Source of the DNA: the human T2T-CHM13v2.0 reference genome, Homo sapiens
Assembly: GCF_009914755.1 (NCBI RefSeq)
Contig: NC_060933.1
DNA length: 64,000 bases
Reading direction: 5' to 3' (one strand)
Positions 2,345 through 37,333 of this stretch are shown piece after piece. The position numbers and the translations under genes are program-made. The stretch's first letter is position 1. Every line of letters starts with the position of its first letter. The notes under the pieces are model-generated. The model did not search any database and was not told the DNA's origin. It saw only the letters and a program-made list of their open reading frames with translations.

Positions 2345-3654
2345 CTTGGAAGAACCCAGCTAAGAAGAGTCAGAAATGGGTCTGGGGGCAGCAATGACTT
2401 TCTCCGATTTTTCCTTCCAGGGACCCCACTGGGAACTGCACAGTATTTAAGACACTGCTGGTGAAAACAGACAACTCTACCACGTACAGAATCTGTGAGT
2501 AGCTGCCAGGCAGCAGAGCCACAGTCCCAGCAGCTCCCACACTCCAGCATCTGGCCACCAGCCCTGGGGGCACGCGGACACCCATCCAGCAGCTCCTGGC
2601 AGGCTGTGCTGACTCACCTCCGCCAGCCTCCAGGGCAGGCACTCAGCCCTCCTGGGGTCCTGTGCCCTCCGCCTGATCCCCACTTATTACACAGGGAAAG
2701 AAGGACTCAGCCCATCCCTGGGTCCCATGGACAGCATTTCCTGGGCCCGTGGTCCCTCCCTGGCATTTTGGAGTCATTTACAAGGCACGTTCTCCTCGCC
2801 GGGCCCTGGCAGAGTCCAGTGGCCTCTGTGGCATCCCGGAAGCTGTGTTTTCATCAGCCCTGCAGAGAAGCTGTCCAAGGCCAGCATCTGACCCCTCTGA
2901 CCTCCGTCAGCCAGAGCGGAGGAAGCAGCATCTGGGGGGGACTCTCACCGGCCTGGAGATGCACTTGGGGCTCACCCACTCACTGCCACCATCCTGCCTC
3001 CCCGAGTGCTCTCAGCTTCTGACTCGGGGCCCCTCCCATTTCCTATAGAGGGACAGAAATTATTAGCATTTCAGACTCATAGACTCAACTTAAAAAGGGC
3101 GCAACCACCCAGCTCACAAGAGCACATCCTCCGCCCCTCCCAGCGGGGGAGCAGGAGGTCTGCATCTGTCCGTGGAGACGGACCACTACTACATCATGAA
3201 CACCCGGGATGAGAGGAGGGACCCGGCCGTGCACACAATGAACCTGACAGGCGCGTGTCCACGCTGATGTCACGGGGCCTGTGGACGGGGGCCTGTGGAC
3301 GGGGGCGCTGCCCCTTGGAGTCCTCCCTAACTCAGCCATGCCCAGGTCTCTGTGGCAATGTGGGTGTAGCCCCCACGGTTCCCTCTGGCTCTCGCTGGGC
3401 CACACCTGGCGGGTGGCGTCCAAGGAGACAGGCAAGGGCTCCGTGATGTGGGACCCTGGGCTGCTGGCCTGGGAAGCAGCATCTCTACCAGGAGAGGCTG
3501 GGTCAAGGAGTCATAGGGGAAGTGAGGGGTACATGGAAGACCCCCTCCTCCAGGATGAGTGTCTGCATGGTTGGCAGAACAGGCTGGGAGACGGGGTCCC
3601 TCTCAGGAGGGCCTGGGGGCTGATTCTGGGGAAGGATCATTGACAGCAGGACCC

Positions 3655-3765
3655 CTGATTCCCCACCTTACCCCACCCACCCCCACCACCCCCCCTTACC
3701 CCACCACCCTCGCCACCCCCACCTTACCCCACCCACCACCTTATCCCACCCACCCCCACCACCCC
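3655..3765. repeat. C-rich low-complexity repeat (CCCCACC/CCTTACCCCA); G4-prone on - strand
   Basis: Directly visible. Confidence 0.85.
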
Positions 3766-4801
3766 TGCAATCAAATGTCCCTCAAGGAGTAGGTGCGGCA
3801 GTGGGGCAGGGCATCCCCAAGCCCAGGAGAGCCCTTCTCTGCTCTGTAGAGGGGCCTGGTAGGACCCCTTCCTATGGAGACTTCAGGGAAGGAGAAGAGA
3901 ACCACCCAGGGTGCTGTCAGCCACACAGGAGGCCCCTCTGCTCAGGTCCCAGATATACTCAGGCCACTTTTCCAGCCTGGAGCTGGGCTGGCAAGGGCTT
4001 CTTCCAAGGCCTCTTCTTAGCCAGAGCCAGCTCGGGTGTCACCCAGAGTCCTGGGCTCACCCTTGGGGCCTTGGCTCTCCTGCTCCATGGTTTGGCCTGG
4101 GGTTGGGGCTGCTACATATGTAGACAGGTCCCGGGGACAGCAGTGCAAGTCCTCTCTGAGGCCAGAGGCCCTGGGAGACCTGTCAGCATCCGGTCTGAAG
4201 AGTGGGGCCCTGCTCCCCTGCCCCACGTGGGCCTGGGGACCCTGCCTCTCCCGACTCCCTACCCCATTTTGCCTGCAGGCCACACCCTGCATGAAAACCC
4301 AGAAGCCCTGATGATCTTAGAAGCGTTTATAGAAAGCCAAAACATAAGCAAAGGCAAGATCTTTACCCCCACTCACCTTGGTAATGAGCACATTTTCCTG
4401 CTTTTCTCCGGACGTTCATTTCCCATGGGGATGAAGGGCTGCAGCTGACACTGAGCCGGGACACTCCGTGTACACTGGGGAAGCCTCAGCATCCTGGGGA
4501 GGAAGTGACCCCCTGCCTGTCTTTCTCTCTAGATTCCTGCGTGGTCGGCTGTAACTGAGGTGAGTGCCACAAGGCCTCTGCGTGTGTTCAGAGTGTCCAC
4601 ACCAGACTCCGGCCGGACTCATGGGCCCTGGGACTCCGCAGCCCTCGACCTTGGCAGCCTCCTTGCCTGCGGGTGCTTGAATGCCACGCAGCATCCGACG
4701 CATCCCACAACCTTGAGTCTGCTATGAGTCAAGTGTGGTCGCTGTAGATAAGGAGGAAAAAAGATCATGAAAAAGAACAACAACAACAAAAAATCACTCA
4801 T

Positions 4802-5528
<727 letters not shown>

Positions 5529-6175: not shown

Positions 6176-8736
6176 CTGCTCTCTGGCATCTGCACGGTTG
6201 CCCCGAAGCCGCTCCGCGACGGCCCTCCCTGAGCTGTGTAGTGCTGGGGGGAGGAGGCGTGGCCACAGTGGGCTGCATTCAGGATCTTGAAAGCCACTGA
6301 AGCCATGGCTGGCTCTCAGCCCTCAGGGAGCCTCTTCCCCTGCCTGGCACCAGGCTCCCAGAATCTGGGAGGCAGCCTCTTCATCTGGCTGCTGGTGGAG
6401 ACCTGAGCCCAGCCCCAGGGTCCTCAGTCCTGCCCCTTGTCCTCCGCAAGCTCTCACTACATCCTACCTATGTCCAGGGACCTCGGCCCATGCATCTGCC
6501 CAGATCCCAGCCTACCCGAGAGCATGCATCCCCAACTGGACCAGCACCCAACATAGCCGAGGGCTCCCCTGACCCACATAAACCTTGTTAATATTGCCTC
6601 TGTGGTCTCTGCTTGTTGCCTGAGGGGTGGAGGTGGGGGGTATCTGCTCAGACTGGCTCCAGCGCATCCTAAGGCCAGGCCCTTCCCAAAGGAGAGTGAA
6701 GCCAGGCCCCATGAGTCCCAGCTGGACAGGAAGGTACAGGCGGGACGGCCCTGGGTTAGGCAGAGTGGTCAGGATGGTTGCTCCAGATACATAGGAACCT
6801 CCAGCCAGGCGCTGGCGCATGGCAGTTGGTTCTCAAACATGCCCTGAATCCTAATTCATCGCCTTCCGCACACCACCCGGGAAAGCTGGCCATACAAGGG
6901 ACTGGGCCCTGCCTACACGGGGGGTGACCAGAGCCATGGTGGGGTGGGGACCTCCATGCAGCTCAAGGCCCCCTCAGTTGGCAGGGACCTGGTACTCCAT
7001 GGCCATGGTGGCCAGTGACTTCTCTCTCCTGGAGACCGTGGAGGCCCCTCTGAGGGTCAACATCACCTCGCTGTGGCCCACCCCCGAGGGCAACCTGGAG
7101 ATCATTCTGCACAGATGGTGGGTTCCTCGTCACTGGGGCTGGGGCTGGTGGGGGGCTCAGTCTCCCTGGGCCACGGGTCCAGGGCTGGGTGGGGTGGGTG
7201 GAGCTGGGGTTCAGCCCCAGGCATTTCCTGACATTCCTGAGGCTTCACTGTGGGCCTTCCATGGTGCCTTGGGCTGGGGTGGAGAATGGGGCTCAGGAGG
7301 TTCCCACTCCCCTTGGAGCCCCTGCCCAAGGGCTCTGGGCCAATGGACTGAAAACACAGCACAGCCCTGGTTCTGTCTTTGGGGAAGGCCAGGCTGGGCT
7401 GCTGTGGGCCGCAGCCCTTCTGGGACCTGCGCGGTTCCTGCCACGGCCCTGCCTGGGCCCCTGGAGTCAGGTGGCTGAGGAACTGGGGGTGTGGCCGTGA
7501 TGGGGCCAGGATCCTCATAAACACTATGTCAAAGCCTCACACAGTCAGGGTCAGTTTTGAGCTGCCTTGTGGCTCAAACACCTGGCCAATGGCCAGCTCT
7601 CCTGCCAGGTCCTGGCTGCCTCCGTCCGCCCCACTGTCCACCTGGCTGCCTGTTCCGCCTTGGAGGCCCCATTCAGGCTGATGCCTGACGACCTGGCTGG
7701 GCTGGGCGTGCTGTGTCCCCAGGTCACTTCCTGGAGTGCAGCCTCCATCCCTGCACTGGGCCCATGGACAGCCCCACCTCTGTGCGGTTTCTCAGGGAAC
7801 ACCACAGATGCGTTGAGAGGACCGTCCTCGCCCAGAAGACTGAGGACCCGGCTGTGTTCATGGTCGACCGTAGGTGCCCCAGCCCCGGGCCAGTTCCACA
7901 CTGTCCCCTGAAGCCTCTCCACAGAGCCAGAAGCCAGCAGGTTCCCTCCCCCACGGCTGGGTCCTGCTCTGAGCCTCGTCCCGTCCCAAAGGCTCCTGGC
8001 AGCTGAGCCTGGGGGTTGAGGCTGTGACCCACTTGGTGTAGGGACAGAGCCTATAGCATCTTGTTGACCTCAAACTCATCAGGACCTGAATCTGAGCTCA
8101 CAACCACAGGTCTGGGTTGGGAGCATTTTCTGTCACCTCGGGCAGGCAGGTGGCAACCTCCTTGCTCAGAAACCTGCAGCCTGTGGCCCAGCTGTCTTGG
8201 ATCCTTAAAAATAACCAAATTAACTAGACCTGCAGCTAGACACGCAGTAGATTGGCCTCTCAAATCTGGCACCTGCTTCTGGAACACCCTGGTCCTCACC
8301 GACCTCTTCCCCATCCCAGCAGCTCCCAGAGTCTCTTTCTGCTCCCCCAGTGCCCTGCCCCACGGGCATGGCCCACATCCCTGGCGGCCTCCCCCAACCT
8401 TGGCCTTAGCTGGAACACAAGCCAGGCCCCTGCTCCAGCAGGTGAGGCAGGGTCCAGTCTAATCTCCAGAGCTGTCCCTGCCACACATAGGCGGAACAAC
8501 CAGGCAGCCACATAGCCCCCCATGTCTGCAGTTCCTCACCTGCAAGCAGGGACCCCCACTCAAGCTCACGTCTATCTGAGAAGGGGAGGCTGCAAGGGGC
8601 TGGAGCAGACATGGCTCTGTTTCTTTCCTCCATTCTTTGATGTCTGTGCACAGCTCCAACCTCCAGACTGAAACCGAGCTCCAGCTCATGAGCCTTCCCA
8701 GGCCTGCTGGGCACCTGCCCTGAGAGGGAGGCACCA

Positions 8737-8770
8737 TGAATGAATGAATGAATGAATGAATGAATGAATG
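8737..8770. repeat. (TGAA)n microsatellite
   Basis: Directly visible. Confidence 0.95.
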
Positions 8771-11227
8771 TCACCTCCGGGTCACGGAGGAGTAGAATTC
8801 ATCCAAGGAGGGCAGTAAATCTGGAGAACGGCTTCGTCAGAGCCGCAGTTTGGAAGAACTACCTTTGCAGCCTTTTGCCCACGCGGGGGTGCAGAAGGGG
8901 CTGGTCAGTGCCAAGGTGGTGCTGCCCGGACCCGCCCCTCCATCCATAGAATATGTCGTGCTGCAGTGGTGAGCGGCCAGCAGCCATCGCAAAGGTGGAG
9001 ACTGAGCGTCAAGGAGAGGTCCAGGAAGGAGGGAGGCCGGCTGCCCAGGTGCAGGGAGCGGCTACTCCGTGGTCCCGTGAATGGCTGCTGTCAGCCCAGC
9101 ACCCAGGAACAGAGGCCATAGGGAGGGACTCAGATGTGATTTCTGGTGTCTGTTTTTGTATTTTTTTCCAGGTCGCGGGACAAGAAAGATCTCTGTGTTG
9201 GACACAGACTAGACGACAGGAGCTACGTGTTCTTCTGCATGGGAACCACCACACCCAGTGCTGACCACCACACGATGTGCCAGTACCTGGGGACGACACA
9301 GGGGCCCCCGGGCTTCATCTGAACAACCCCAAATCCGGTCCTTTTCTCAGTGGGAGGAGAGAGGGGCCGCCCTGCCCACCTCCCCAGGCCCCATTCGCCG
9401 GAGGTTGCCTGGTGTTGGTGTCGGAAACCAGAAGCCACCAGGGAAGATGTTGCGGTAGGGGGGATTTTAATGGGGGCGGGGGGCAGGGACTAGTGTCAAA
9501 TTTGGGTCAGGCCAAAGGGGGCCGATGTGGTAAACAGGTCTGGCAGCAAGTGGAGGGGCCACATCTTACAAGCAGATAGAACTGGCCAATATTAGTCCAT
9601 CAACCTTCATTAATGGAGATTTAAGTTGGATCTCAAATGTGAATGCAGCTTTAAAAGGTGATAGTCTAACCCCGGTAAAGCTCATGGTGCTGTTGCCTCT
9701 GTTCTTAAGGGTCCCCAGGGTTCCTAAATGGACCATTGGTGTTGGGGCTATAGATACATCCCCTGTTCTATAAATCCGCCCTCCTGGATTGCGGGAGACA
9801 TCAGTGGGACTTCAGGGGAGGCAGGAACTTTTCGGAAAAAATATAGCCACATAGGCACAGCCCTTCCCCATGTTTCTGAGCGCACCATTTCCTCTGGGGT
9901 CACACAGGTGTCTTCTTGATCAGCCTCAGCTGTGCTTGGTGAGAGCCAGGCACCGGGGGAGGCAGGCACTATGCTCTCCTTCCGTGACACTGTAGACACC
10001 ATCCTGAGCCCCAGTGCTGCCCAGAGCGGGCCCCAGTGCTGCCCAGAGCGGAGCAAAGGGGGCCAGGCCGAGGAGCGGGAGTTGGGGACAGGGAATCTAC
10101 AGGCCAGGAGCCCTAGAGACCGCCCTGGGGACCTGCTCCAGACCAAACTCTGCCTGACCTCGGAGCACTGGGTCCTCCTTCCCTGCCCTCCCTCCCCAGG
10201 CAGGGTCCTTGGAGCTCCCAGGGCCCAGGACTGAGCCAGCGTCCCCCACAGCCAGGACCCTAGAGGCAGACGACAAGGTCATGGAGGAATTCATCAGCTT
10301 TCTCAGGACCCTGCCCGTGCACATGTGGATCTTCCTGGACGTTACCCAGGCGGAAGGTGAGCTCCACCCAAGACAGGCCCAGCCTCGGCTGGAGGAGAAG
10401 CCACCACTGTCCCAGCCCAAGCCCCCCGCTGGCCCTGTAGGACTCAGGGCAGCACCCGTCACTCCTCGTTGGCCCCTCCCATGTTCTCCCCAGGGCTCCC
10501 CTGGGGATGCAAAGGCACCCTGAGGTGGGGTCCCGTCCCCCTCCCATCATCCCCCAACCTCTGGCCCTGGGACTGCTGTGTCCCCAGCTAAGTCTCCCCT
10601 CCCACTGACGCCCCCACTGCCCCCTCTCCTCCCACAGAACAGTGCCGCGTCTAGATGAGCTCCTGCTCAGTCCTGCCTCCTGGGTAATGTACCAGCCCCG
10701 CCCATAGCCTGAGGTCGCCTTTCTGGGCTCCTGGAAGAGACCCCACTGTGTCCATTCCCCAGGGCTGACCCTGAGCGATGGGCTGGAATCCTGGGGCATC
10801 TGGAAAAGCCCAGCTGGCCATGTGCCCGCGTCTCTGGGGTTGGCTGCTCCAGATGCCATTTCCTGTGTCCTGGGCACAGGATGAGGCCTTCTCCTCCAGG
10901 GTGGGGGTGAGTGAGGGTGGGGGGCTCAGGGGAGGGTGGGCCTGGGATCATAAGCCCCTCCGGCCTGAAGCTGGGGGTGAGGTGGGGGCTCCTCTCACAT
11001 AAGCAGGGGTCCCTCACTCTAGGACCTGCAGGGGCAGGGTCCTAGAGTCACAGGGGAGCCCTTTTGTGCACATCAGGTCCTGGAGCCTCGGCCCCTGTGC
11101 GGACGGAGAGGATGTCGCCTTCCTGGGAGGGACAAGGAGGCTGAAGACCAAGGCACGTTTCCTGGGACGCTGGGACCTCCTGGGTCTCAGCCTGGGGTCT
11201 CCTGTCCTAAGCTGTCCCTCTTTGAAC

Positions 11228-11233: not shown

Positions 11234-11292
11234 TAACCCCGTCCCCTGAGTCTGTGCTGGCAGGCGCGTGGGGATGCAGCTGAGGGCAGGCT

Positions 11293-11545
11293 GTGGGGCT
11301 GGGGAACTCGGGGACTGGCGGACTCAGGGGCTGGGGGGATCGGGGACTGGGGGACTCAGGGGCTGGGGTCTCAGAGGCTGGGGGGCACGGGGGCTGGGGA
11401 CTCGGGGGCTGGGGGACTCGGGGGCTGGGGGCTTGGGGCCTGGATGACTCAGGGGCTGGGGGACTGGGCTGGGGGGCTCAGAGGCTGGGGGGCTCAGGGG
11501 CTGGGGGGCTTGGGGGCTGGGGGACTCGGGGGCTGGGGGGTTGAG
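11293..11545 (+). repeat. G-rich repeat (GGGGCT/GGGGGACTC), G-quadruplex-prone
   Basis: More than 20 G4-G6 runs with short loops. Confidence 0.9.
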
Positions 11546-12481
11546 GGAACTGAGTTCATGGTTTCTGTATTGTAGGCCCTATCATATTTGGGGATCAAGA
11601 CACTATAGGAGGCTTTAAAATTTTCAGGAACTAGATAAGAGTGCTGCTGAGATGGCCAGAGCTTGCCATTCATGTTGGAGGTCCAGGCCACACAAAGGAC
11701 AAAATATGAAAAATCACAGACCCATTCATTGAATAAATATTGATATAAAAACTTAAATGAGTGTTTTACAAATCAAATTCTGCACTATTTAAAAAACACA
11801 AACCCCATGACCTCCAGGGCATCTCTCTGGAGCATAAGGGAAGTTGCTACCAGGAAGAGCTTTGCTATCAGCCTTCATCTGCTCATAAATGCCATTGATC
11901 TTTTCTGGGCTAATGTGAAATAAAGAGATTTCCCCTGGATTGAGGAACTGAACAAAAGAGGTGAGATATGGGAGAGGAATTTGTTTTTCATTATAAAATA
12001 TTTTGAACATCACAAAAGGAAAAAGAATATGCAACAACAGAAATAGATTTGTCAATAATTGTAACATGCATAACTTTAAATTTTCAAAATATAGATGGCA
12101 TGGATACATTTCCAATAAAATATCAATGACCAATATTGGCTCAAAAAGTAGAGGAAACTTAGAAAGAACAATCATCATAGAAAAAACCAGAATAGTTCCA
12201 GATCTTCTGTCTGTGGATGAGAATAAAAAACCTTTATCTGATAGTTCCTGGCTCATACGATCCATTCCAGGGCATAGAAAAAGATGGTGAGTTGCTCAGC
12301 TGCCCTGATAACAAAACTGGAGAAGGAAGATACAGGAAAAGGAAAGCTGTCAACTTTCAGAATCAAGACACAAATATCTGAATACCTTATTAGCAGACTG
12401 AATCTAACAAACGTATTTAATACATCATGATTTAGCCCAAAAAACAAAGAACATTTCAATATTAGAAAATGTATCAATAAA

Positions 12482-12765
12482 AGCCAGGTGTGGTGGCTCA
12501 CACCTGTAATCCCAGCACTTTGGGAGGCCAAGATAGGCAGATCGCCTGAGGTCAGGAGTTCAAGACCAGCCTGACCAACACGGTAAAACCCCGTCTCTAC
12601 TAAAAATACAAAAATTAGCTGGGTGTGGTGGCAGGTACCTGTAATCCCAGCTACTCCGGAGGCTGAGGCAGGGGAATCACTTGAACCTGGGAGGTGGACA
12701 TTGCAGTGAGCCGTGATCATGCCACCTCACTCCAGCCTAGGTGACAGAATGAGACTCCATCTCAA
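12482..12765 (+). mobile_element. Alu (AluS)
   Basis: Alu dimer consensus. Confidence 0.95.
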
Positions 12766-13269
12766 ATGTATCAATAAAATTAACTAACTTAAGACTAAGG
12801 GAGAAGTGCCATATAAGAATCTTTAATTAATTTTTAAAAATATGTTTCAAAAAATATAATATTCCATTCATGAAGGAGACCTTGCACATCAAGAGTGTCA
12901 TTCAACATTAAATAGCATATGCTGTGCTTATAAGTAACCCTGAAACCCTGAAATGAATGAATCAATCACTGAAAGCACCAAAGAGTTATTTCTTGCTTAT
13001 GCAAAATTTCCTTTGTGGCTTAGCAGGAGAGTTGACTCCTCATGGTCACTCAACAATCCAAGTGATCAAATAACCACCACCCGTGGTGTTGCTGGCCACC
13101 ATGCCAGAGAGAAAACATAGGCATCAAGGGGCTTCAAACTGTCCATTCAGTGCCCTATCCTGAAAGGGACACCTATTACCTCCCTAGAAGGGGGCTGAAA
13201 AGTCCAATCCTACCTAGGTTTCCTACCTAAGAATAGAAAGGAACGTCCCTAAACTGATGATTAAAAAAA

Positions 13270-14300: not shown

Positions 14301-14520
14301 TCTTAGTCAGTTCCAGCTGCTGTAACAAAATATGACACACTGGGTTGCTTAAACCACAAACATTTATTTCTTACAGTTCTGGGAATGGTAAGAAAAGGAG
14401 CACAGTGCTGGCAGATTTCACGTCTGGTGAGGGCTCTCTTCCTGGTTTGCAGATGGCCACCTTCTTGCTGTATCCTCGCATGGTAGAGAGAAAGGTCTCA
14501 TCTCTCTTCTTTTTATAATG
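14299..14520. mobile_element. MaLR (MLT1A/MST-like) LTR fragment inserted in L1
   Basis: TGTCTTAGTC...GCTGCTGTAACAAAATA...ATTTATTTCTTACAGTTCTGG. Confidence 0.7.
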
Positions 14521-15824: not shown

Positions 15825-15896
15825 TTCTTTGTGGTCTAATAGTTAAAATTCTGCGATTTCACTGCCATGGCCTGGGTTTGATTCCTGGTCAGGGAA
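15825..15896 (+). pseudogene. tRNA-Glu(TTC)-derived relic inside the ERV leader
   Basis: 72 nt, colinear without gaps with tRNA-Glu TCCCTGGTGGTCTAGTGG...TTTCAC...GGTTCGATTCCCGGTCAGGGAA; about 16 mismatches, mostly C>T/G>A. Confidence 0.75.
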
Positions 15897-16120
15897 TTCT
15901 TTTGGTTTGATATTTGTGTGACTTTTCCCAGTTATTGATGCTTTTCCATTCCATTGACGGCTTTTGATTTCCTGTCTTCTGCCGGTGAAGGCATACAGGG
16001 ATTTGGGGCCTCTGTGTGTAGACCATCAGCTGGGAAGCTAAGACCCTAGAAAATATAGCCAGATAGAAATGTGGGTTGTGCCCCATTTATGGCGAGTGAA
16101 AGTTTCCTTTCTTGGAGCTG

Positions 16121-16795: not shown

Positions 16796-17107
<312 letters not shown>

Positions 17108-17264: not shown

Positions 17265-19827
<2,563 letters not shown>

Positions 19828-20019: not shown

Positions 20020-20456
<437 letters not shown>

Positions 20457-20668: not shown

Positions 20669-21183
<515 letters not shown>

Positions 21184-26501: not shown

Positions 26502-29500
26502 ATGAGGCTGTGGCCCCGCAGCATGGGGCTGGGCCTGGCCTGAGCCCTGCGGTATGACAGCCAGACTTCCATCCTGAGCAGGAGGTGCTCCAGGGGTTCT
26601 GGGGGCAGGGTGTGTGGGGGCAGCCGATGTTCCCGAGGCCTGTCCTGGAACCCTGCCACCCCACAGCACACTGTGCACTCCATGGCACTCTGCAGGCGGA
26701 GATGCTGAGGCACAGGCCTCCTGCTACACGGGGAGGTGGCAGTGAGGGGACAGCTGAGTCAGGCCCGTCGTGGGCACTGCTCTGAGAACTCACAGGGCTC
26801 TGAACGTGCTGACAGAGGGAGACCTGCAGAATGATACCCCTGGAGAGGGCAGGAACCACGGGATACTGACCCTCACTCCTCTGGGCTCCCCTCAGGGTGT
26901 GGGCCACCTGAGACCTCCCCACGGGCTGGCCAGGGTCCAAGCAGGGCTCAGAACCTGGGGCCCTTGGCCAGGCCTGCCTACCGTGTTCCCCACAGCCACA
27001 GACCCAGCAGCCCCAGGTAGGAGAAGATGCAGGGAAACCCCACCACCCCCTCAGCGTCACCCGTGGCCCAAAAGGGGCCACACCAGGCTGGCCAGCCCAG
27101 CTGGGGAGGGGGTTCAGAGTCAGCGGCCCCCAAGACCCCGGCCCAGAACATGACATGAGAGAAAGTGCACACCCACCCTGTGCACACCCGGCCCCCATCG
27201 CTGCTGCAGCCCAGGACCTGGGGACGAGGGGCTCATCAGGGCTGCCACGGGCTGGACACCAGGCCTTGCTGCCTCCAGGTGGAGGGGCCATGACATTCCG
27301 TGAAACTCGGTGTCACCAAGGACCATCACTGAGGGCGGAGGCGCCCCCGCGTCTGTGTTTCATGTCAGACATCAAACTCCTGGAAAACGGCAGCTCGAAG
27401 ACCTATTCCTGCGTGCGACAGGGGCTCTGATGGCCGCCCACCCCGCCCCCAGGTCTCCACTTCCGCTCCCCCTCCTCCCCTCGGAGAGCCCAGGGCTGAA
27501 TCCCCGCACCCAACCCCTTCCCCCTGGGCTTCCCTATTGCTTATGGCTCCCCCCAAGCCCTGAGCCCCCAGGGGGGCCTTGATAACAGGGCTCAGGGCCG
27601 CCCGTCTGAGCTGCTCCCCTGGAAGGTGGGATGGCAGCCCTCGGCTCCTCCTGGGTGAACCCAAGGCCGGCGACCTATTCACGCCCCAGGTGACCCTAAC
27701 AGCGCCAGCTCTAGCAGGCACGCCTCACAAGGAAGGCTGCTTCTGTTTTAGAAAAAACAAAGTGCGTGAAAGAATTCTACATGGGAGAAGACACCCAGGG
27801 GACTACACTTTGATCATGAGTAGAAGTCACCGTGGCTCCCAGGTGGCTCACATGGGGGTTGGCGTGAGCTAGTTGTTGATGTAAATGTGACCTGGTGGGA
27901 AGGTTCCAGAAGGGGCAGTGAGGTGAGGTGGGGCAGGAATGAGGAGATGACACCACAGAAATTCAAAAACCCCGAGCAGTGGCTCCACAGCTGTGCGTCT
28001 CAGACTCCCAGGGTCCCGCACACTCGGGCAGGTCCCCTCCCCACCAGCTGAAAGTCTGAGACAGGCGGGGTGGTTGGGGGGAGGCCGCTGCGGGGAGGGG
28101 CACGCCAGGGTCTGGGGTGCACATAAGATTTCCCTTTGGGAATAAAAGTCACGGCTGGAAGTTTGAGGAACAGAGGGAGGTGAGCTTCACGCTCCTGGGT
28201 GCTCCATGGACGGGCGTCCTGTTAAGCCAGGGCCTGGGCTGGGTGAGCCTGAGGCAGAGAGGCACTGAAGGCAGGATTTGCTAGAGTTAGGAAGGTCCTT
28301 CCGCCCCCTCTTCCATGCGTCTGGCCTGCCATCCTTCTGACCTAGAGAGACACAGAGAAGGAGAGACAGAGAGAGAGAGAAACAGAGATGGAGAGACAGA
28401 GAGAGACAGACAGAGAGACAGAGATGGGGAGACAGAAAGAGACAGACAGAGAGACAGTGATGGAGAGACAGAGGCAGACAGAGAGATAGAGATGGAGAGA
28501 CAGAGACAGGCAGAAAGATGGACAGAGGCAGAGAGATAGAGATGGAGAGACAGAGACAGGCAGAAAGAGATAGAGGCAGACAGACAGAGATGGAGAGGCA
28601 GAGACAGACAGAGAGACAGAGATGGAGAGACAGAGACAGACAGAGATGGAGATAGACAGAGGCAGACAGAGAGACAGAGATGGAGAGACAGAGACAGACA
28701 GACGGAGAGACAGAGGCAGACAGAGATGGAAAGACAGAGACAGAGAGACAGAGATGGAGAGACAGAGAAAAAGAGAGACAGAGATGGAGAGACAGAGAGA
28801 GACAGACAGAGAGACAGAGAAAAACAGAGAGAGAGACAGAGATGGAGAGACAAAGAGAGACAGACAGAGAGACAGAGACACATGACGTCAGTGGTCTGGG
28901 TCTGTGCCTGTGGTTTGATCCTGGGCTCCAGGTGCCCATCGAGGACTGAGCTGTGAGGGAGATGGGGGTCGGGGCTGAGCCAGCTGGGAGGGGCAGGGCA
29001 CACTGGGGTGGGAGGTGGCTGGTGGATCCCCACATCTGTGAGCTGTTCCATTTTCTGTCATAGAGAAGGGCAAAAACGATCTCACTCTCATGGCTCTGAC
29101 TTTGCCATGACTGACACGGAAAATCACAAGGGAGGCAGCCTCCCTGTGGCAGAGGCCTGAGGTAGGTGCTGCTCGACTCCTGGACAGGAGCACCCATACC
29201 GGGACAGTGGAAGGAGAAAAGGAACAGAGTCCAGGGGGGTGGGCTGTGAGGGTCAGGGGCTGGAGCCCCCTCCCACGGGCTGGTCTCCCTCCATGGAGAT
29301 GCCAGGGTACCCTCTTCACCTGCCATCCTGATCACAGATGGTTTTGGTCACCTGTGACCTCCCTGGCACCCCACCCCCTCAACCCCATGCACCACCTGGT
29401 GCAGCCCTGGTGGCCGCAGAAATGGCTGTGTGGGTGAGCGTGGGCAGCAGGTACATGAGACCCACACACCTACAGAAGGCATCAGGAAGGGACAGCGTTG

Positions 29501-29522: not shown

Positions 29523-30169
29523 GTCTTGCTGGGACCTGAACTGTAGCAGGCTATGGGATGACCACACTCCCCAATAGGAAATTCACCCTGACAGCACGTG
29601 TGCCAAGAGGCAGCCAGGAGACCAGGGGCCGTCTGGGGTGGGTTTAGCTGGTCCAGGGCTCTGCAGAGTCTGGGACTGGGCTACTGCTGCTGTGGGCAGG
29701 GCTGGGGGGTCACTGAGCTCCAGCAGTGACTTCTGCTTTCTGCTTTAATCCACACCAAGGTGCACAAACTCCAGCTGTGGGTGAATTGACCCCTGGCCCT
29801 GTCCACATCTGCTGCTCTGGGCCAGCGGCCTTTTCCACCAGAAGGGATGGGGTCTTGCTCCAAGGATGGCCCTCCCGGTGCAGTCCCCAGTCCACTGGGC
29901 CAGAGGCCAATGGGCGGTGCTGGTTAAAGATGGCTGGTCCAGGGCCTGGCCTGTCAGAACATCCAGGTAGGAAGGGAATCTACAGACCGAGGAAGACCCT
30001 ACTCTCTCTACCCAGGTGTGCAGGGCTCGCAGAGCAGGTGGGGACCCTCCAGAAGCTCCCACTGAGGTCTCAGGAAGAGCCACAGCCTCCTCCCACCCCA
30101 GATGGCATGAAACTGGCACCTGGTCTTGGTGCCCCCTGCCTTGTCTCCAGTCACCCCTTCTGTCTGCCC

Positions 30170-30702
30170 CCTGCACACACAGCCCTGCACACATATACAC
30201 TTGCACACTCACACACCCCTGCACTCACACTCCTGACTTCACACTTGCACACACATCTGCACTCACACCTGCACACACCCCTGTACACACACACCCCTGC
30301 ACTCACACACTTGCACATACATCTGCACTCACACCCCTGCATTCACACCCCTGACCTCACATTTGCACACACACCTGCACACACACGTGCACACTCACAC
30401 ACTTGCACATGCACACCCCTGCATTCACATCCCTGCACTCACACATGCTTGCACACACACCCTACACTCACACACACCTGCATACACACACCCCTGCACT
30501 CACACACTTGCATACACACCCCTGCACTCACACACACACCCCTACACTCACACACACCCCTGCACTCACACACACACCCCTGCACTCACACACACCCCTG
30601 CACTCACACACATCTGCACACACACCCCTGCACTCGCTTCACATACCCCTGTACACACATACACTTACACACTCACACGTACCTGCACTCATCCCTGCAC
30701 AC
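30170..30702. repeat. CA-rich compound repeat (CACACCCCTGCACTCA)n
   Basis: Directly visible. Confidence 0.95.
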
Positions 30703-32620
30703 AGATCTCAGGCCAGCACCCAGACACCAGGGAGGTTGGGAAGTAGGGGAAGGTGCCCAGAGGCAGAAATCACAGACCCAGGGCAGCAGCTGGGCCCTGG
30801 AAGGTCCACAGGGAGCGCTAGGACCCCCTAAGGCCCAAGCAAACAGGCAGACTTGAGGTTGACTGTGGCTGCTGTTGAGTGACATCCTGCACCCAGAAGG
30901 AGGAAGAGGGATGGAGGCCAGAAGCTGTCGCGCTGCGCTGAGCCCTGCCCAGCCATGGCCACTTCTGGAACCTGCATGCGGAGCTGAGCCAGTGCAGGGT
31001 GGGGCCTCCCCAGGGCCCCAGGGGGTGTAGGCAGGATGCAGGATGCTGTATCGGTCCCCGGCCCCTTGACTCAAGCATGGCCAGCTCAGCGCTGGAGGGT
31101 GTGTGGGAGCTCAGACTGAGTCAGCCATGGGCGGCAGCTGCTGTGTCTTCCAGGACATAGGGGATGGGCCTGAGGTCTCCTCAGGCCCACCTGAGTCCCT
31201 GTGCCTGTGGCCAGGGGTGGGGAATGAGACTTCATCTTCTAGCCTGGCCATTACCAAGGCTGACCTGGGAGAGCTGCCTCACCCTGGCCTGCTGATGGAA
31301 GCCTCCAGAAAGACCCCACAGATCAGGCCAGGCCCTCCCTAGCCAGGGCTTCGGAGCCACCCTGATGGGCTGGGTGCATTTCCTGTAAACCTAACCGGAC
31401 CCTCAGCCAGGACCTCTGGCTGGGAGCTGACTTCACAGCGAGCTTATGGGGAGCAGGCACTCAACTAAGCTCTTTCCTTTATTACCTGACTCCGTCCTCG
31501 GAGCACCCTGCACAGACCATGGCATCCCTGCCCGCTCTCTATCTTTGGAGATAAAACAGAAGCTCAGTGGGTGGAACTTGGGACTGGCCACATTCCATGG
31601 TTGGAGGGGGCTGGCGGGGCATCACTCGTGCAGCACCAGCCCAGAGTAGCCCCTCAGTGTCCATCTAAGAACCCTGAGGCCAAGCGAGTGGTCACCCTGA
31701 GGCCAGCTGTACTCCCCACACCAGACTCCAGACTCCCTGGAAGCTGGGACCTGCAGCAGTCAGGCAGCCTCTCCTTGGCCCCATGCAGCCCCAGGCAGGA
31801 GGAAGGAGGGCAGGGCGGGGGCGGGGTACAGAGGCAGGTGCCACATTCAAGGGCTGGCAGGCATCTCTGTGCGGCTGCAGCAGGGAGGGAGGGAGTGGGG
31901 AAGGGGTAGACCACAGGGGCTTTGTGGCCTGGAGATCTGCACTTAATCCAGATGGCAAAGGAGGACCCAAAGACGAGCAAGCAGGGAGCACCTGACCCGA
32001 CCCCACGCTGGCCTATGCACACACAGGGGCAGGAGGATGGGGCAGGAGAGAGGCTCATGGCGTGGCCTGGGAGTGGCTCCAGGGTTGGAGAGAGGGGGCT
32101 GGTGGGAGACGTTTGCAGTAAGCAGGAACAAGGGACAGACGCCCCGTGATGAGTGCCTGGCGTGTGCCGAGTGCCATCCCAGAGCTGGTCTGTGTCACCC
32201 CCTCCACCCTCCCCACACCCGGGCAGGCCCCACCGTGAGCATGAGGTGAACAGAGATGTGAGAGTGATCCTGGCATTTGTGGCTCCAGCAGCAGGTGGAC
32301 AAACACACTGGGGGTCAGGGGGCCTGGGGAGGAGGGACTGCAGGCCCGAATGAGCCCACATCCTCCTCTGCCCTCTTCTCAGCCCCCCTCAGGCACAGGC
32401 CTCATCCCAGAATCCAGGACAGGCGTGCAATGCAGTTAAACTGCCCCGACAGCCACTCCACACCCAGTCCAAACAACAGCTTCGCATCACTTTAGACATG
32501 GGGCGGTGCCCAGAGGCGGCGTCATTCCTGGGGTGGGATTGCGGAACTTTTAGGTGGCAGGTGGGTCCGGGCAGCGCAGAGGAGGGAGCTGGCTAGGGAC
32601 GCTCCCCCTTCCCCGGAGCC

Positions 32621-35600
32621 ATGGCCCTGGAGAAAGGCCCGCTCCTGCTGCTGGCCCTTGGCCTGGGCCTGGCGGGTGCCCAGAAGGCTCTGGAAGAGGT
32701 ACCGGTACAGCCGGGCTTCAATGCGCAGAAGGTACGTGTCATGGGTCCAGTCCCCAGACTCAGGCCTGGAACAACGGCTTGAGTGTCACATTGAGGAGGT
32801 GCAGGGGGTGGGGCAGACAGGGGGGTGCCGGGGTTCAGGTCCTGCCTGACCCTGCAGCAGCTCTGGAGGGTGAGCTGCACCTGGGTCCAACCCAGGCGGG
32901 AGCGGGCTCTGTCCTCCCGCGCAGCCAGCACCAGCGGCCACTGATTAACCTCGGGGCCTTTCCCTCTCTCCGGGCTGCGGAAGCTACAGCACAACAGCAG
33001 GTCGCAGGAGAAGGCTGCAGGGCGGCAGCCGGAGAAACAGAGCGCCCAGACACTGGGCCCAGGCAGGGAGCAGGGTCCCAGGGGACCCAGCCGAGCAGGG
33101 GAGGGGTTCACCCTGGGTGACACGAAGAGGCCAACCCTGGATACAGGGAGGGTCCCAGCTCCTCCTCCCTGTGTGGCCCCTGGGGTCCTGGTGCTGCTGG
33201 TGGGAGTGCAGGGATGGAGGGACACCCGGCACAGCACCAGACCCTCCCCTCTGCCCTCCCTGACCAGGGGAACAGAGCTTGGACCAGGCAGAGGCAGGGG
33301 TGCAGGGCTGAGGGAAGTGGGGGCAGCAAGTGGGGAAGGGGACTGGACAGAGACCTGAGACAAGGGGACGGGAGGTGACTCTTCCCAAGAAGTAAGCACA
33401 GCTTATCCTCCACCTGGACCCACAGATGGGCATTTGCCAATAGAGACCAGGAAGGGGGAACGTTTGCCAGTGCAGCCCCCTGGGAGGGGCACGACCACCT
33501 GCTGACCATGCTCAGTGCCGAACCTGGGGCCTGAGAGCCCAGAGGGTGGCCTGCTGGGGCTACACAGCCGGGCACTAGCCAGCCTCTCCTGTCCCGGCCC
33601 ACGCCCCTGCAGGTGGAGGGGGTGCCACACAGCCGGGCACTAGCCGGCCTCTCCCGACCCGGCCCACACCCCTGCATGTGGAGGGAGTGCCACACAGCCG
33701 GGCGCTAGCTGGCCTCCTCTGCCCCGGCCCACACCCCTGCAGGTGGAGGGGCGCTGGCTCACCCTGCAGCTGGCAGCCAACCACGCAGACCTGGTCTCCC
33801 CGGCCGACCCCCTGAGGCTCGCTCTCCACTCCATCCGGACCAGGGACGGCGGGGACGTGGACTTCGTGCTGTTCTGGAAGTAAGCACGGCTCCTGCCGCC
33901 CCTCTCAGGCGCTCATTCTCAGACCTAGGGACCCCCAAGCAACAGTGACAGTGTTCAGAGCCAGAGGAACACATCACACCAAGCTGAGGCCCAAGACCCC
34001 GCTCCAAGAGGGGTAAGCTCAGAAGCTGCCAGAGGCAGGTGGGCAGGAAACACACAGCCCGGCCCCGGAGGCAACGTCCAGTCCCAGCAGACACGCCCAC
34101 TGGGCCACGGGCCTGTGTTCCAGCTGTGAAGGAAGCCCGGGTCTGGAGTTTTAAATGTGCGATCTCCAGTGTTTGAAAGTTGCCTCATTCCCAACATCCC
34201 TCTCCCAAGGACCACAGCCACCCTGGGCCCACACCCCTTCCGGCCCCGATGTAAGCCAGGGAATCCCGAGGACGGCTGCACTGTCAGCAAAAGAAAATCG
34301 GCCCTGGGGACAAGCTACGCTGAGCGCAGTGACACCGACAACAAGCTTCCGTTATTCCGCCTGCACCCACAGCTCCGAAGGCAGTTAGACCCACATCCTA
34401 GCAGACGCTCAGTCGTAGACACACCGCACGGTGGCCTGCAGAGTCCCAGGGGTTGGTGGGCACCCACCCCAAATGAGAAACTGAAGACCCCGGAGCAAGG
34501 GGCATGGGAGTGAGGGGGGCTCTGTCTATGCACGGAGGCAGGAGCATGGGGGCGAGGGGCCTCTGTCTATGCACAGAGCCAGAGCAAGTGGGGACAGGCA
34601 GGACAGTCAGAGTCCCAGTCCCCAAAACCTGGAGCTCAGAGCCAAAGCCAGACTGGGACCAATCTGTTCCAGGAGGCTTGGTGTCATCCCAGAAGTGAGG
34701 AAGACTCCACTTCGTCACTCCAGTCCCATCCCCAGCACCCCCTGGGCATCGCCACCTCCTGGCTGCATGACCCTGGTGCCTGTGCCAGGACGAGGCTGCC
34801 CTTGAGTCTGGGGAGCTGACGCCCCGGGGAGAACAGGAGGGCTCTCAGCTGGTGGCAGCCACAGTGTCCCCTGGTGGAGAGCCCTGAGAGGGCCACCACG
34901 TCCTGGGAAAGGGCAACAGGACACAGTTGGAGGCTGACCAGGCCCTGGTTCCTTTCTCTTTTCCCAGGGGAGAAGGGGTGTGTAAAGAAACAAACATCAC
35001 CGTCCATCCAACCCAGTTGCAAGGCCAGTACCAAGGCTCATGTGAGTGCCCCTGTCCGGGATCTGGGCTGGGCTCTGAGTGGGGAGGGGCGAGCAAGGGA
35101 CGCTCGGATGTCCAGTCCCGGCCGCAACACTCAGAAGGGGTTGTCGGCTTTGGGGGAAGACCGGGTGCTGGAAGGAAGCTGTGCATCCTCTTGGTGGCAT
35201 TGCAATGTCCACAGGGCATGGGGGGGTCCAGGGCCTGGGGGACGGAGGAGAGAGGCATCGTGCATCAGCTGGCCCGGGGTCTCCAACAGTCGAGGGCGGC
35301 AGCATGCACGTATGCTTCGTCAGCACCGACTACAGCAACCTCATTCTTTACGTGCGCTTTGAGGATGATGAGATCACCAACCTGTGGGTGCTGCTGGGTA
35401 AGTGGCCAGCTCTCCCCAGCACTGGCAGGTGCAGTGCCTCAGACCCCAGACATGAGGGCGGAGCTGCTGGACACTCCCGGCTCTGTGCAGAGACTTGCTG
35501 TCCTGTCTGGGAGGGGGCCTTCTGTGCAGGGTGTTCTGAGGGCACAGGCAGCCTTGGGCCGAGACGCAGCTGAGCTCTTCCTCCGACACATGCCCCTCAG

Positions 35601-37333
35601 GGAGGGTGTCCCCACGCAGGACGTGCACTGCGGGCCTGCTACAAGGCGGGCACTGCTCTGGGCGCTGCACTGGGAGCTTGAATTATCAGTGGATAAAACT
35701 GAGAAAACACCTTCCTTGTCTTCCTCCTTATCAAGCAATGTCTCGGGGTCCTGGGGGGCTCCTGAAAGTAAAAGCACCATGAGAGAAGGGCTCGAAGGGC
35801 ACAGGGGACTGAGTGGGGGACATCGAGGGGCTGCAGTGTCCTGAAGACGAGGTGGAGATAGATGGGGCTGGGGGCATTTCAGGGCAGAGGATCAGCCGGA
35901 GCCCGAGCCCAGGATGGGGTGGGGGAGCGGGGCAGCAGCAGCCGAGAGGCCCCAGGGCCAAGAAGGTCGAGGGGTTGGGAGGGGTGGCACCAGGCCGGAA
36001 CTTGGGACTCTCTGGGGGTCTCCACTGAGGCAGGCCAGGCCTGACTTCCTCCTTCCAGGGGCATTTTACCTGCCGTGCTCAGAACAGACCTGTGTTTAGA
36101 GGAGGCAAGGTTGGGGCCGGTGCAATCAGAGCTGGCCGGGCCTGGGAGGTCGCAGAGGGGGTGCTGCCGTGGTCCGAAGAGCCCCCAGACTGTGTCGTGG
36201 CAACTTAGTGGTGGGGTGGCCGATGCCCAGGGCCTCTGCCTCCCCGTTGTTCTCCGCAGAGGAGGAGGAGGACAGAAAAGACAGAGGCTCCAGGCCTCAG
36301 CCCCTCACTGTCAGCCCCTCTGATTCCAGCGAGAAGAATGCTGGAGGACCCCAAATGGCTGGGAAGATACTTGGAGTACGTGGAGAAATTCCACCTGCAG
36401 AAAGCCCCGGTCTTCAACATAGATGGTGAGCACTGTCCCCCAGCCACATCCTGGAGCCGGACGGGAAGAGGGCCTGAGGGTCTGGGGCCTCGTCTTCCCA
36501 GCCAGCACCACTGAGGGTGTAGCCCATCCGCACTCCCCTTACGGCCAGGCCTGTGCCGGCTGCTTCAGGGGCTGCCGGATCTTACCAGCCCCACATGACA
36601 CAGTGATATGGGTCCAATGCCGTCTCCACTCTACAGATGTGGCTCAGAGACGTTCGGTAACAAGGCCAAGTTGCACAGCCAGGAGGAGGAGCTGGAAGGG
36701 ATCCAGATCTCCAGCCTCCTGAGCCAAGTGCCCAGCCAGCCTCTCCCCTCTGCTGCCTCCCAACGCATCATTCAGTCAATCAACAAGCACACGGGCCAGG
36801 CCTGTTCTGGGAGTTTGGGATTCACTTAGAACAAGACAGACACATCATCCAGCCCTAGTGCAGGTTACATTGCAGCAAGCATTGTCATTACCTGATTTGT
36901 TAGAGGCAAGTGCTATGGGGGTGGGAGTGGGGGCTAGAGCAAGGTTTGAGGAGCATGACCGTGCTGTGTGAGCACGGGCCGCCAGGGTGGGTGGCCCTGA
37001 GATGAGGTGAGGGAGGAAGGCTCCCTGGAAGATGGGTCATGCAGCTGGAACAGGAGCCAAGCAGAGGAGGGCAGGGATGAGATCCAAGGCTGAGAGGGGC
37101 AGTGGGTGGGGCCTTGTGGGCCCCCAAGGGGAGTGGGTTTCCACAGAGCACAGGGCCCTGGCAGGACACAGCCAACATGGGGAGGCAGAAGGCCCAGTGA
37201 TGCCAGTGAGGGATGGCTGTTTTGTGCTATGTGATTGATTTACTGATTGATTGATTTCAAAATGAATGAGTGAAGTCCTCAGAATCACCACCTTTTTCTT
37301 TTCTGCTCCACAGGCCCATGTCCCCCACCCTGA
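32621..37333 (+). CDS. Lipocalin locus D: intact 181-aa secreted lipocalin, join(32621-32731,33743-33879,34968-35041,35290-35397,36330-36425,37314-37333)
   Basis: Strong Kozak GGAGCCATGG; all five introns GT-AG with lipocalin phases 0,2,1,1,1; 546-nt open frame. Protein: MALEKGPLLLLALGLGLAGAQKALEEVPVQPGFNAQKVEGRWLTLQLAANHADLVSPADPLRLALHSIRTRDGGDVDFVLFWKGEGVCKETNITVHPTQLQGQYQGSFEGGSMHVCFVSTDYSNLILYVRFEDDEITNLWVLLARRMLEDPKWLGRYLEYVEKFHLQKAPVFNIDGPCPPP*. Has a signal peptide, GxW, TDY, SCR3 Arg and Cys88/Cys178. Confidence 0.92.
33562..33752 (+). repeat. 65-bp tandem repeat x3 spanning the intron1/exon2 junction of locus D
   Basis: Units start at 33562, 33627 and 33692; each ends CCCCTGCA(G/T)GTGGAGGG. 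Confidence 0.95.

What the first reader, a model, noticed from the sequence alone, without database searches (positions are those of the whole stretch)
2421..37333. Four-gene head-to-tail lipocalin array showing staggered gene loss
Seen: loci A, B, C and D are all on the + strand, share exon architecture and are very divergent from each other in sequence. Their decay is graded: D intact; A one indel; B exon 1 missing plus frameshift and dead donor; C many lesions. Established: 9q34 lipocalins act in milk, reproductive secretions and odorant/pheromone transport. Inference: this segment records stepwise loss of an ancestral secretory lipocalin module in the primate lineage, with one under-studied survivor.
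Basis: inference. Interest (0 to 1): 0.7.

Follow-up and report, generated by a model that had tools for sequence, protein, structure and literature searches.

The report
Human lipocalin array: three relics, one survivor
Between PAEP and GLT6D1 on human chromosome 9 lie four old, unrelated-looking lipocalin genes in a row, three of them broken and one still intact but almost unstudied.

Summary
The observation largely holds. Four + strand lipocalin loci sit between PAEP and GLT6D1.

- **A** is a relic related to LCN1/OBP2. Its exons 3 and 6 are reused by the lncRNA LINC01502.
- **B** is the known beta-lactoglobulin pseudogene PAEPP1.
- **C** is an unannotated relic resembling Lcn11.
- **D** is the intact gene LOC102723971.

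The four share lipocalin exon sizes and phases. They are only 23-33% identical in protein, and A, C and D show no nucleotide similarity to one another or to B. In a tree they fall in four separate clades, each of B, C and D with non-human members. They are therefore ancient paralogues, not recent dead-on-arrival copies. B and PAEP are the exception: they are 79% identical in DNA, introns included.

The claimed grading is too tidy. A is not nearly intact. Its exons 1-2 lie at or before the window edge and add a stop codon and two frame breaks. Exon 4 adds a 1-nt loss and a GC donor.

D has orthologues in monkeys, gibbons, bats and rhinoceros, is single-copy in the human genome, and a close orthologue models as a classic lipocalin barrel.

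When each gene was lost in primates could not be tested here. The result is mostly known biology with two newly recognised relics.

The parts
1..62 (+). Locus A, exon 2 (3' part; the exon begins at -70, outside the window). Encodes ...SGRW... (GxW motif).
   Evidence: Best matches are to exon 2 of D and its orthologues (E 0.012-0.08). No AG acceptor and no good GT donor lies in the lipocalin frame. Exon 1 lies at -5156..-5067 with a TGA at codon 17.
2421..2494 (+). Locus A, exon 3 (74 nt, AG/GT). Identical to an annotated LINC01502 exon.
   Evidence: (HMM positions 80-101, 6.0 bits); hub annotation.
3144..3250 (+). Locus A, exon 4 (107 nt). Out of frame with exon 3. The donor is GC, not GT.
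   Evidence: (HMM positions 112-140).
4279..4380 (+). Locus A, exon 5 (102 nt, AG/GT).
   Evidence: P0111, E 0.002; OBP2A exon 5, 36% over 25 aa.
4533..4558 (+). Locus A, exon 6 (...DSCVVGCN then TGA). Its acceptor is the start of the last LINC01502 exon.
   Evidence: hub annotation.
6978..7117 (+). Locus B (PAEPP1), exon 2, 140 nt, open, AG/GT.
   Evidence: Pfam Lipocalin, E 0.0017; E down to 9e-18.
7796..7869 (+). Locus B, exon 3, 74 nt, open, AG/GT.
   Evidence: (72% identity to P0135).
9172..9290 (+). Locus B, exon 4, 119 nt. TAG at 9210-9212 in place of the TDY tyrosine, 5 extra bases after it, and a GG in place of the GT donor.
10252..10356 (+). Locus B, exon 5, 105 nt, open, AG/GT.
10638..10654 (+). 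Locus B, exon 6 (EQCRV then TAG).
26533..26584 (+). Locus C, exon 1 remnant (tentative): ...LGLA*... and ...V*QPDFHPEQ.
   Evidence: (E 0.48). Weak, but about 700 nt upstream of exon 2 in the expected order.
27279..27412 (+). Locus C, exon 2. TGA at 27291-27293 in place of the GxW tryptophan. Two frame changes.
   Evidence: (P0049, E 6.5e-6).
27752..27823 (+). Locus C, exon 3 (KCVKEFYMGEDT...). Frame changes and no GT donor.
29064..29161 (+). Locus C, exon 4. About 12 nt shorter than in relatives, with a TGA at 29158-29160.
   Evidence: (E 0.001).
29418..29483 (+). Locus C, exon 5 (tentative).
   Evidence: E 0.006 in a 3.5-kb search space.
32621..32731 (+). Locus D (LOC102723971), coding part of exon 1: signal peptide and N-terminus.
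33743..33879 (+). Locus D, exon 2 (GxW: EGRW).
34968..35041 (+). Locus D, exon 3 (Cys88, NIT sequon).
35290..35397 (+). Locus D, exon 4 (TDY).
36330..36425 (+). Locus D, exon 5 (helix).
37314..37333 (+). Locus D, coding end (…PCPPP then TGA; Cys178).

Best explanation
The segment is an old tandem array of four different kernel-lipocalin genes, all on the + strand, between PAEP and GLT6D1.

- A belongs to, or is sister to, the LCN1/OBP2/vomeronasal-secretory-protein group.
- B is a beta-lactoglobulin-type gene (PAEPP1).
- C belongs to the family that the protein atlas names 'Lipocalin 11'.
- D (LOC102723971) belongs to a fourth family that NCBI pipelines label 'beta-lactoglobulin' in other mammals.

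In the human genome A, B and C have been disabled independently, each by its own stops, frameshifts, splice-site losses and, in B, loss of the 5' end. D keeps an open 181-codon frame.

Inferred, not shown: D encodes a secreted, N-glycosylated carrier of small hydrophobic ligands of about 18 kDa. A's promoter and two of its splice sites survive as the lncRNA LINC01502.
For: Anatomy and lesions.

Reality of the relics: HMM scores of 47.5, 102.7 and 17.9 bits for A, B and C, against shuffle maxima of 4.5 or less.

Ancient paralogy:
- No nucleotide similarity in any of the six pairs among A-D.
- 23-33% amino-acid identity.
- Tree: D lies in a clade supported 100/99. C lies in a clade supported 100/99 and is sister to P0049 (98/90). 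B lies in the beta-lactoglobulin clade (100/100). A is sister to LCN1+OBP2A+VNSP (92/76).

Family names:
- Atlas: 'Lipocalin 11' for P0049, score 0.95; 'Beta-lactoglobulin isoform X4' for the D orthologue.
- The N-terminal part of P0029 is 96% identical to Cricetulus vomeronasal secretory protein 1.

Neighbourhood in other mammals: 5 of the 15 long or odd models printed fuse adjacent members in the human order. P0029 joins VNSP1, C-like and D-like parts. P0052 joins an OBP2/VNSP-like end, a C-like part and a D-like part. P0032 joins B-like and C-like parts. P0034 joins B-like and D-like parts. P0111 joins an A-like exon 5 and a B-like part.

D orthologues: all 18 proteins at E<=0.01 among 42 candidates, from Old and New World monkeys, gibbons, three bats and a rhinoceros, plus one unnamed.

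Single copy in the human assembly:
- The D-type query hits only D's five exons.
- The C-type query finds no intact gene.
- The B-type query hits only B and PAEP.
- A's DNA is unique apart from a 100-nt low-complexity stretch.

D's fold: the AlphaFold model of the gibbon orthologue (168 of 181 residues identical to human) has pLDDT 85.5, eight strands and a C-terminal helix. Its best PDB matches are beta-lactoglobulin, Can f 6 and boar salivary lipocalin, with TM 0.65-0.82.

LINC01502: its annotated exons 2421-2494 and 4533-... equal A's exon 3 and A's exon 6 acceptor. Its annotated start (-5236) lies 80 nt upstream of A's ATG (hub annotation).
Against: - A has no sampled orthologue. A 50-aa read through its exon 4 found no protein at E<=1 among 49 candidates. 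Its end branch is long (1.68) and its placement is not strongly supported (92/76).
- C's family name rests on an automatic cluster label only.
- The fused models carry no species names except P0029, whose species is inferred from 96% identity. The synteny evidence is therefore indirect.
- B and PAEP are 79% identical in DNA including introns. That pair is younger than the rest, or has undergone gene conversion.
- D's individual exons give no Pfam match at E<=1. Whether D is made in any human tissue was not examined.
Confidence: 0.8

Rival explanations
1. The loci are recent, primate-specific duplicates that were never functional (dead on arrival).
For: Only for B. B and PAEP share 79% nucleotide identity over 965 and 529 nt, including intron sequence. 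Glycodelin is described as restricted to primates (PMC8173191, passages seen).
Against: A, C and D have no detectable DNA similarity to each other, to B, or to PAEP (apart from repeats), OBP2A, LCN1 and LCN9. They sit in separate clades, and those of C and D hold non-human members. B keeps four of its five recognisable exons open with canonical sites at all but one junction, as expected of a gene that once worked. The literature treats PAEPP1 as the human beta-lactoglobulin gene and lists beta-lactoglobulin proteins for orangutan, macaque and baboon.
Confidence: 0.07
2. D is also on its way out. It would be an intact-looking but functionally dispensable or unexpressed gene in humans, so the array has no real survivor.
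For: D evolves fast: 13 of 181 residues differ from macaque and 25-29 from New World monkeys. By recalled genome-wide divergences that is roughly half the neutral rate. An intact decoy acceptor 130 nt upstream of exon 2 would lead to a stop if used. One paper in the library names the gene. It is absent from the 2019 family review.
Against: The 181-codon frame is open and all splice sites are canonical. The human end branch is short: 0.02, against 0.057 for macaque and 0.051 for gibbon. Only one human change (S50N) falls at a site where all 12 orthologues compared agree. GxW, TDY, Arg145 and the Cys88 column are invariant or nearly so in the orthologue alignment. Orthologue frames are open in many lineages. 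RefSeq carries a selected NM_ record (hub annotation).
Confidence: 0.2
3. A and/or C are chance resemblances rather than gene relics.
For: Single exons of A score only 2-6 bits with the general HMM. That is within the noise of the window, where the best minus-strand hit scores 6.6 bits. C's exons 1 and 5 are weak.
Against: The joined reads score 47.5 bits (A) and 17.9 bits (C), against shuffle maxima of 4.5 and 3.5. The exons are collinear, on one strand, and match successive profile segments. Their sizes and phases match D's, and AG/GT sites flank them. A has a signal-peptide exon ending ...VPVPAEK|GT and a last exon with Cys and a stop. C's exon 2 matches its family at E 6.5e-6 and joins that clade at 100/99. 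A control region whose HMM hits looked similar (62-64 kb) proved to be noise, with 282 hits against 223-304 in five control stretches.
Confidence: 0.03
4. The pairs OBP2A-PAEP and A-B arose by duplication of a two-gene block.
For: The order is the same: an LCN1/OBP2-like gene followed by a beta-lactoglobulin-like gene. In the tree A falls beside the LCN1/OBP2A group and B falls with PAEP.
Against: If the two pairs had been copied together they should be equally diverged. B and PAEP are 79% identical in DNA, whereas A and OBP2A have no blastn match at all and are 30% identical in protein.
Confidence: 0.1

Closest known systems
PAEPP1, the human beta-lactoglobulin pseudogene; bovine and caprine beta-lactoglobulin pseudogenes
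   Same: Locus B is this annotated pseudogene. It is a broken beta-lactoglobulin-type gene beside PAEP (hub annotation; PMC8173191, passages).
   Different: Added here: exon-level lesions (no exon 1, a TAG at the TDY tyrosine, +5 nt, a GG donor) and the extent of DNA similarity to PAEP. From recall only: its exon 3-4 peptides resemble the 'type II' paralogue of horse and cat. The tree leaves the inside of the clade unresolved.
MUPP, the human unitary pseudogene of major urinary protein at 9q32
   Same: It is a secreted chemical-communication lipocalin that is functional in other mammals and disabled in humans (PMC2864566 and PMC6381713, passages).
   Different: MUPP has a single human-specific donor mutation. 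A, B and C carry several lesions each, so they probably died earlier. They lie in the 9q34 cluster.
Mouse Lcn11 (nasal, lacrimal and salivary lipocalin)
   Same: Locus C clusters with proteins whose atlas cluster is named 'Lipocalin 11'. Lcn11 is said to exist in mouse but not in human (PMC6381713).
   Different: Orthology to mouse Lcn11 itself was not tested, because no mouse sequence was at hand. C is a heavily decayed relic. It is not in the annotation given for this window.
LCN1 (tear lipocalin), OBP2A/B, rodent Lcn3/Lcn4 (vomeronasal secretory proteins)
   Same: Locus A is sister to this group in the tree (92/76). It has their exon-5 length of 102 nt and a ...DHY... motif in exon 4 like LCN1.
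   Different: A is only 30% identical to LCN1 and OBP2A and lies outside their 100/99 clade. Its exon 2 resembles D's more than theirs. No orthologue was found.
Bovine beta-lactoglobulin, dog Can f 6, boar salivary lipocalin (solved structures)
   Same: The model of the D orthologue superposes on these with TM 0.65-0.82. It has the same eight-strand calyx and helix.
   Different: Sequence identity is only 19-24%. D forms its own clade. The label 'beta-lactoglobulin' on its orthologues is an automatic name.

Membership tests
Kernel lipocalins (Pfam PF00061) | GxW motif in the first conserved region (strand A) | tested here: met
   D has EGRW; G40 and W42 are invariant in 58 sequences. A has SGRW. 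B has AGTW. In C the Trp codon is a TGA, which is a lesion at the right place.
Kernel lipocalins (Pfam PF00061) | TDY motif (strand F/G) and a conserved Arg/Lys before the helix | tested here: met
   D has STDY and LLARR; D121 and R145 are invariant among 11 orthologues. In B the motif reads TD then TAG. A has TDHY, and His where LCN1 has the Arg. C has MTDTEN. The motif is met for D and degraded in the relics.
Kernel lipocalins (Pfam PF00061) | Eight-stranded antiparallel barrel followed by an alpha-helix | tested here: met
   Tested on the gibbon orthologue of D (168 of 181 residues identical to human): pLDDT 85.5, strands 43-144, helix 151-163. Foldseek probability is 1.00 to many lipocalins. 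The human protein itself was not folded.
Kernel lipocalins (Pfam PF00061) | Match to the family profile | tested here: met
   Pfam PF00061 is precomputed for 6 of the 18 D orthologues. Pfam matched B's exons 2, 3 and 5 weakly (E 0.0017-0.3). It matched none of D's single exons at E<=1. The in-house profile gives A 47.5, B 102.7, C 17.9 and D 203.8 bits.
Kernel lipocalins (Pfam PF00061) | Conserved gene structure (six coding exons; intron phases 0, 2, 1, 1, 1) | tested here: met
   D's coding exons are 111/137/74/108/96/20 nt. A's are 90/133/74/107/102/26. B's are -/140/74/119/105/17. C's are ?/134/72/98.
Kernel lipocalins (Pfam PF00061) | Signal peptide and the disulfide between strand D and the C-terminus | tested here: inconclusive
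   D has a hydrophobic N-terminus, MALEKGPLLLLALGLGLAGA, plus Cys88 and Cys178. The Cys88 column is 90% or more conserved. No signal-peptide predictor or disulfide geometry was run.
Unitary pseudogenes | Disabling mutations in a gene with the ancestral exon-intron structure (not a retrocopy) | tested here: met
   A, B and C all have introns and multiple lesions.
Unitary pseudogenes | No functional copy of the same subfamily elsewhere in the genome | tested here: met
   Met for C and for A's DNA. Not met in the strict sense for B, whose paralogue PAEP is intact.
Unitary pseudogenes | Functional orthologue at the syntenic place in other species | tested here: inconclusive
   The evidence is indirect: fused gene models and literature for beta-lactoglobulin. 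No mammalian genome other than human could be searched.

The most novel reading that the evidence does not exclude
The four genes are the remains of an ancestral placental 'nose, gland and reproductive secretion' lipocalin block, which rodents still use in the vomeronasal organ and nasal glands. Three things would follow. Humans would keep one working member, D, that the family reviews missed. D might be the primate counterpart of a rodent olfactory lipocalin said to have no primate orthologue. A's promoter would have been kept as the cycle-regulated endometrial lncRNA LINC01502.
Probability: 0.2. Interest if true: 0.55.

Novelty: new member of a known kind. Interest (0 to 1): 0.35.

Why it matters
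- It adds an intact, conserved lipocalin gene (LOC102723971) to the human set of 19 listed in the 2019 review.
- It shows that LINC01502, an lncRNA that rises in receptive-phase endometrium (PMC7710794), is the transcribed shell of a dead lipocalin gene.
- It identifies an unannotated relic of the Lcn11-type gene, which is described as present in mouse but not in human.
- Together with PAEPP1 and MUPP, this fits the broader picture of humans shedding secreted carriers used in chemical communication and milk.
- The practical value is modest. It offers a candidate protein to look for in human secretions and a clean locus for dating gene losses in primates.

Tried and rejected
1. Direct tblastn of D against the window found no paralogue, only noise. 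The loci are too diverged for that approach.

2. A Pfam scan of 419 + strand open frames of 30 aa or more found only three B exons. It found none of D's exons, so Pfam on single exons is too insensitive here.

3. A possible fifth relic on the minus strand at 63.4-63.9 kb (HMM hits) is rejected. It gave 282 weak hits with a best E of 0.044. Five control stretches gave 223-304 hits with best E of 0.007-0.031.

4. A search for A's orthologues with a 50-aa read through exon 4 gave nothing at E<=1 among 49 candidates.

5. Exon 2 of A was first sought at 2040-2290 from weak VNSP matches. That was dropped when the upstream DNA showed a better exon 2 at -70..62.

6. The first AlphaFold run with 11 orthologues gave pLDDT 47 and was unusable. 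The run with 58 sequences was used instead.

7. Block duplication of OBP2A-PAEP to give A-B was rejected on unequal divergence.

8. Whether D matches mouse Lcn16/Lcn17 could not be tested, because no mouse sequence was available.

Full report
**What was checked**

The window is human 9q34.3. The finding claims four head-to-tail lipocalin loci (A-D) between 2421 and 37333, with graded decay and one intact survivor.

**Locus D**

The annotated coding exons of LOC102723971 join to 546 nt, giving 181 codons and a TGA. All introns are GT-AG.

A search with exon 2 returned 18 proteins at E<=0.01 among 42 candidates. They come from Cercocebus, Nasalis, Macaca, Nomascus, Hylobates, Saimiri, Saguinus, Sapajus, Plecturocebus, three bats and a rhinoceros, plus one unnamed protein. 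Most carry the automatic name 'beta-lactoglobulin'.

In the human assembly a macaque orthologue hits only D's five exons. Human D differs from macaque at 13 of 181 residues, from gibbon at 13, and from New World monkeys at 25-29. Only one human change (S50N) falls where all 12 compared orthologues agree.

The gibbon orthologue was folded with a 58-sequence alignment. The model has pLDDT 85.5, with eight strands and a C-terminal helix. Its best solved matches are beta-lactoglobulin, Can f 6 and boar salivary lipocalin (TM 0.65-0.82, 19-24% identity). A first fold with 11 sequences failed (pLDDT 47).

D is therefore a real, conserved, single-copy kernel lipocalin. A secreted ligand-carrier role is inferred from the N-terminal hydrophobic stretch, the NIT sequon, the Cys88/Cys178 pair and the fold. 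It is not shown.

**Finding the others**

D itself does not detect paralogues, and Pfam on single open frames saw only three B exons.

An exhaustive search with the macaque D orthologue gave 125 proteins. Used as tblastn queries, they revealed exon-sized matches at 4281-4388, 6969-10478 and 27264-27454 besides D.

A profile built from 39 of these non-human proteins then placed collinear hits for A, B and D on the + strand.

**Locus B**

This is PAEPP1. Exons 2-6 are at 6978-7117, 7796-7869, 9172-9290, 10252-10356 and 10638-10654.

Exon 4 has a TAG at the tyrosine of TDY, five extra bases, and GG instead of the GT donor. No exon 1 is found, and DNA similarity to PAEP stops 78 nt upstream of exon 2.

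B and PAEP are 79% identical over 965 and 529 nt, introns included. With recalled primate mutation rates this suggests a split some 55-120 million years ago, or later gene conversion.

A review (PMC8173191, passages seen) already calls PAEPP1 the unexpressed human beta-lactoglobulin gene. It lists beta-lactoglobulin proteins for orangutan, macaque and baboon.

**Locus C**

C is not in the annotation given for this window.

- Exon 2 (27279-27412) matches the P0049 family at E 6.5e-6. It has a TGA at the GxW tryptophan and two frame changes.
- Exon 3 (27752-27823) has frame changes and no GT donor.
- Exon 4 (29064-29161) is about 12 nt short and ends in a TGA.
- Exon 1 (about 26533-26584) and exon 5 (29418-29483) are tentative.

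The atlas names P0049's nearest cluster 'Lipocalin 11' (score 0.95). This is a lead, not a test against mouse Lcn11. No intact gene of this type is found elsewhere in the human assembly.

**Locus A**

Within the window:

- Exon 3 is 2421-2494.
- Exon 4 is 3144-3250. It is 107 nt, out of frame with exon 3, and has a GC donor.
- Exon 5 is 4279-4380.
- Exon 6 is 4533-4558.

Exon 3 and the exon 6 acceptor are exactly LINC01502 exon boundaries.

The upstream 20 kb was fetched from the window's own assembly. It shows exon 2 at -70..62, with SGRW. No in-frame canonical junction links it to exon 1 or to exon 3. Exon 1 is at -5156..-5067 and reads M...SML, then TGA, then ...VPVPAEK|GT. It lies 80 nt downstream of the annotated LINC01502 start.

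So A has at least one nonsense codon, three frame breaks and a non-canonical donor.

A's DNA is unique in the genome. A search for orthologous proteins found none. LINC01502 rises at LH+7 in endometrium, according to PMC7710794 (passages).

**Are they real, and how old?**

Read-through translations, with X at each break and built only inside scripts, score 47.5 (A), 102.7 (B), 17.9 (C) and 203.8 (D) bits against the non-human profile. The 300 shuffles of each reach at most 4.5.

None of the six pairs among A-D gives a blastn match at E<1e-3. Protein identities are 23-33%.

In a 57-row maximum-likelihood tree:

- D sits in its own clade (100/99).
- C sits in the Lcn11-like clade (100/99), sister to P0049 (98/90).
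- B sits in the beta-lactoglobulin clade (100/100), with nearest relative P0113a at 62% identity.
- A is sister to LCN1+OBP2A+VNSP (92/76, long branch 1.68). Its placement is the least secure.

Five fused gene models in the protein library join neighbouring members in the human order. One of them is 96% identical to Cricetulus vomeronasal secretory protein 1 over its first part.

These results reject the 'recent dead-on-arrival duplicates' refutation for A, C and D. They also make a two-gene block duplication (OBP2A-PAEP giving A-B) unlikely.

**What is not settled**

- The timing of the three losses. No non-human mammalian genome could be searched.
- The identity of A's orthologues.
- Whether C equals mouse Lcn11, and which rodent gene matches D. 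One paper states that Lcn16/Lcn17 have no primate orthologue (PMC4154679, passages).
- Whether D is expressed in humans.

On print coverage: only one paper in the library names LOC102723971, and it does so in a variant table. Searches for PAEPP1, LINC01502 and 'Lcn11 + pseudogene + human' returned nothing whose listing or the passages I read describes A or C as lipocalin relics. Most of the LINC01502 papers were seen only as a listing. Supplements were not read.

**Verdict**

The result is mostly known biology (PAEPP1, an annotated D) with two newly recognised relics.

Noticed in passing
window 33562-33751: A 65-bp unit is repeated 2.9 times (88% matches) across the intron 1 / exon 2 boundary of D. 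The first copy keeps an intact ...CTGCAG|GTGGAGGGGG acceptor 130 nt upstream of the real one. In the second copy the AG has become AT. Using the decoy would run into a TAG.
   Followed up: partly
window 38228-38746: A minisatellite (CCTTCTCCC) of about 58 copies starts at the 3' end of D's last annotated exon.
   Followed up: no
window 28344-28882 and 30168-30633: A purine-rich (AGAGAGAC-type) array of about 540 bp lies inside C's intron 3. A CA/CCTG-rich array lies downstream of C. They explain the strong GC and AT skew at 28-30 kb and the long open frame at 29717-30853.
   Followed up: no
window 11289-11540: A G-rich minisatellite (unit GGGGCTGGGGGACTCG, about 16 copies) lies just downstream of B.
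   Followed up: no
window 12000-21000: An AT-rich block (GC 0.37-0.43) separates B from C. It contains a reverse-transcriptase fragment (RVT_1, E 8e-5) at 17291-17494. It is probably LINE-derived filler.
   Followed up: no
window 1108-1165: This LINC01502 exon lies in A's intron 2 and has no lipocalin counterpart. The RefSeq transcript shown skips A's exons 4 and 5, which fits the weak GC donor of exon 4.
   Followed up: partly
L011 (G000:C9:147773001-147779000), OBP2A: In this assembly OBP2A exon 4 reads ...GGLCHMGKLVG and exon 5 reads RNSNTNLEALEE.... These differ at a few residues from the sequence I recall for OBP2A. They may be allelic or paralogue-derived differences.
   Followed up: no
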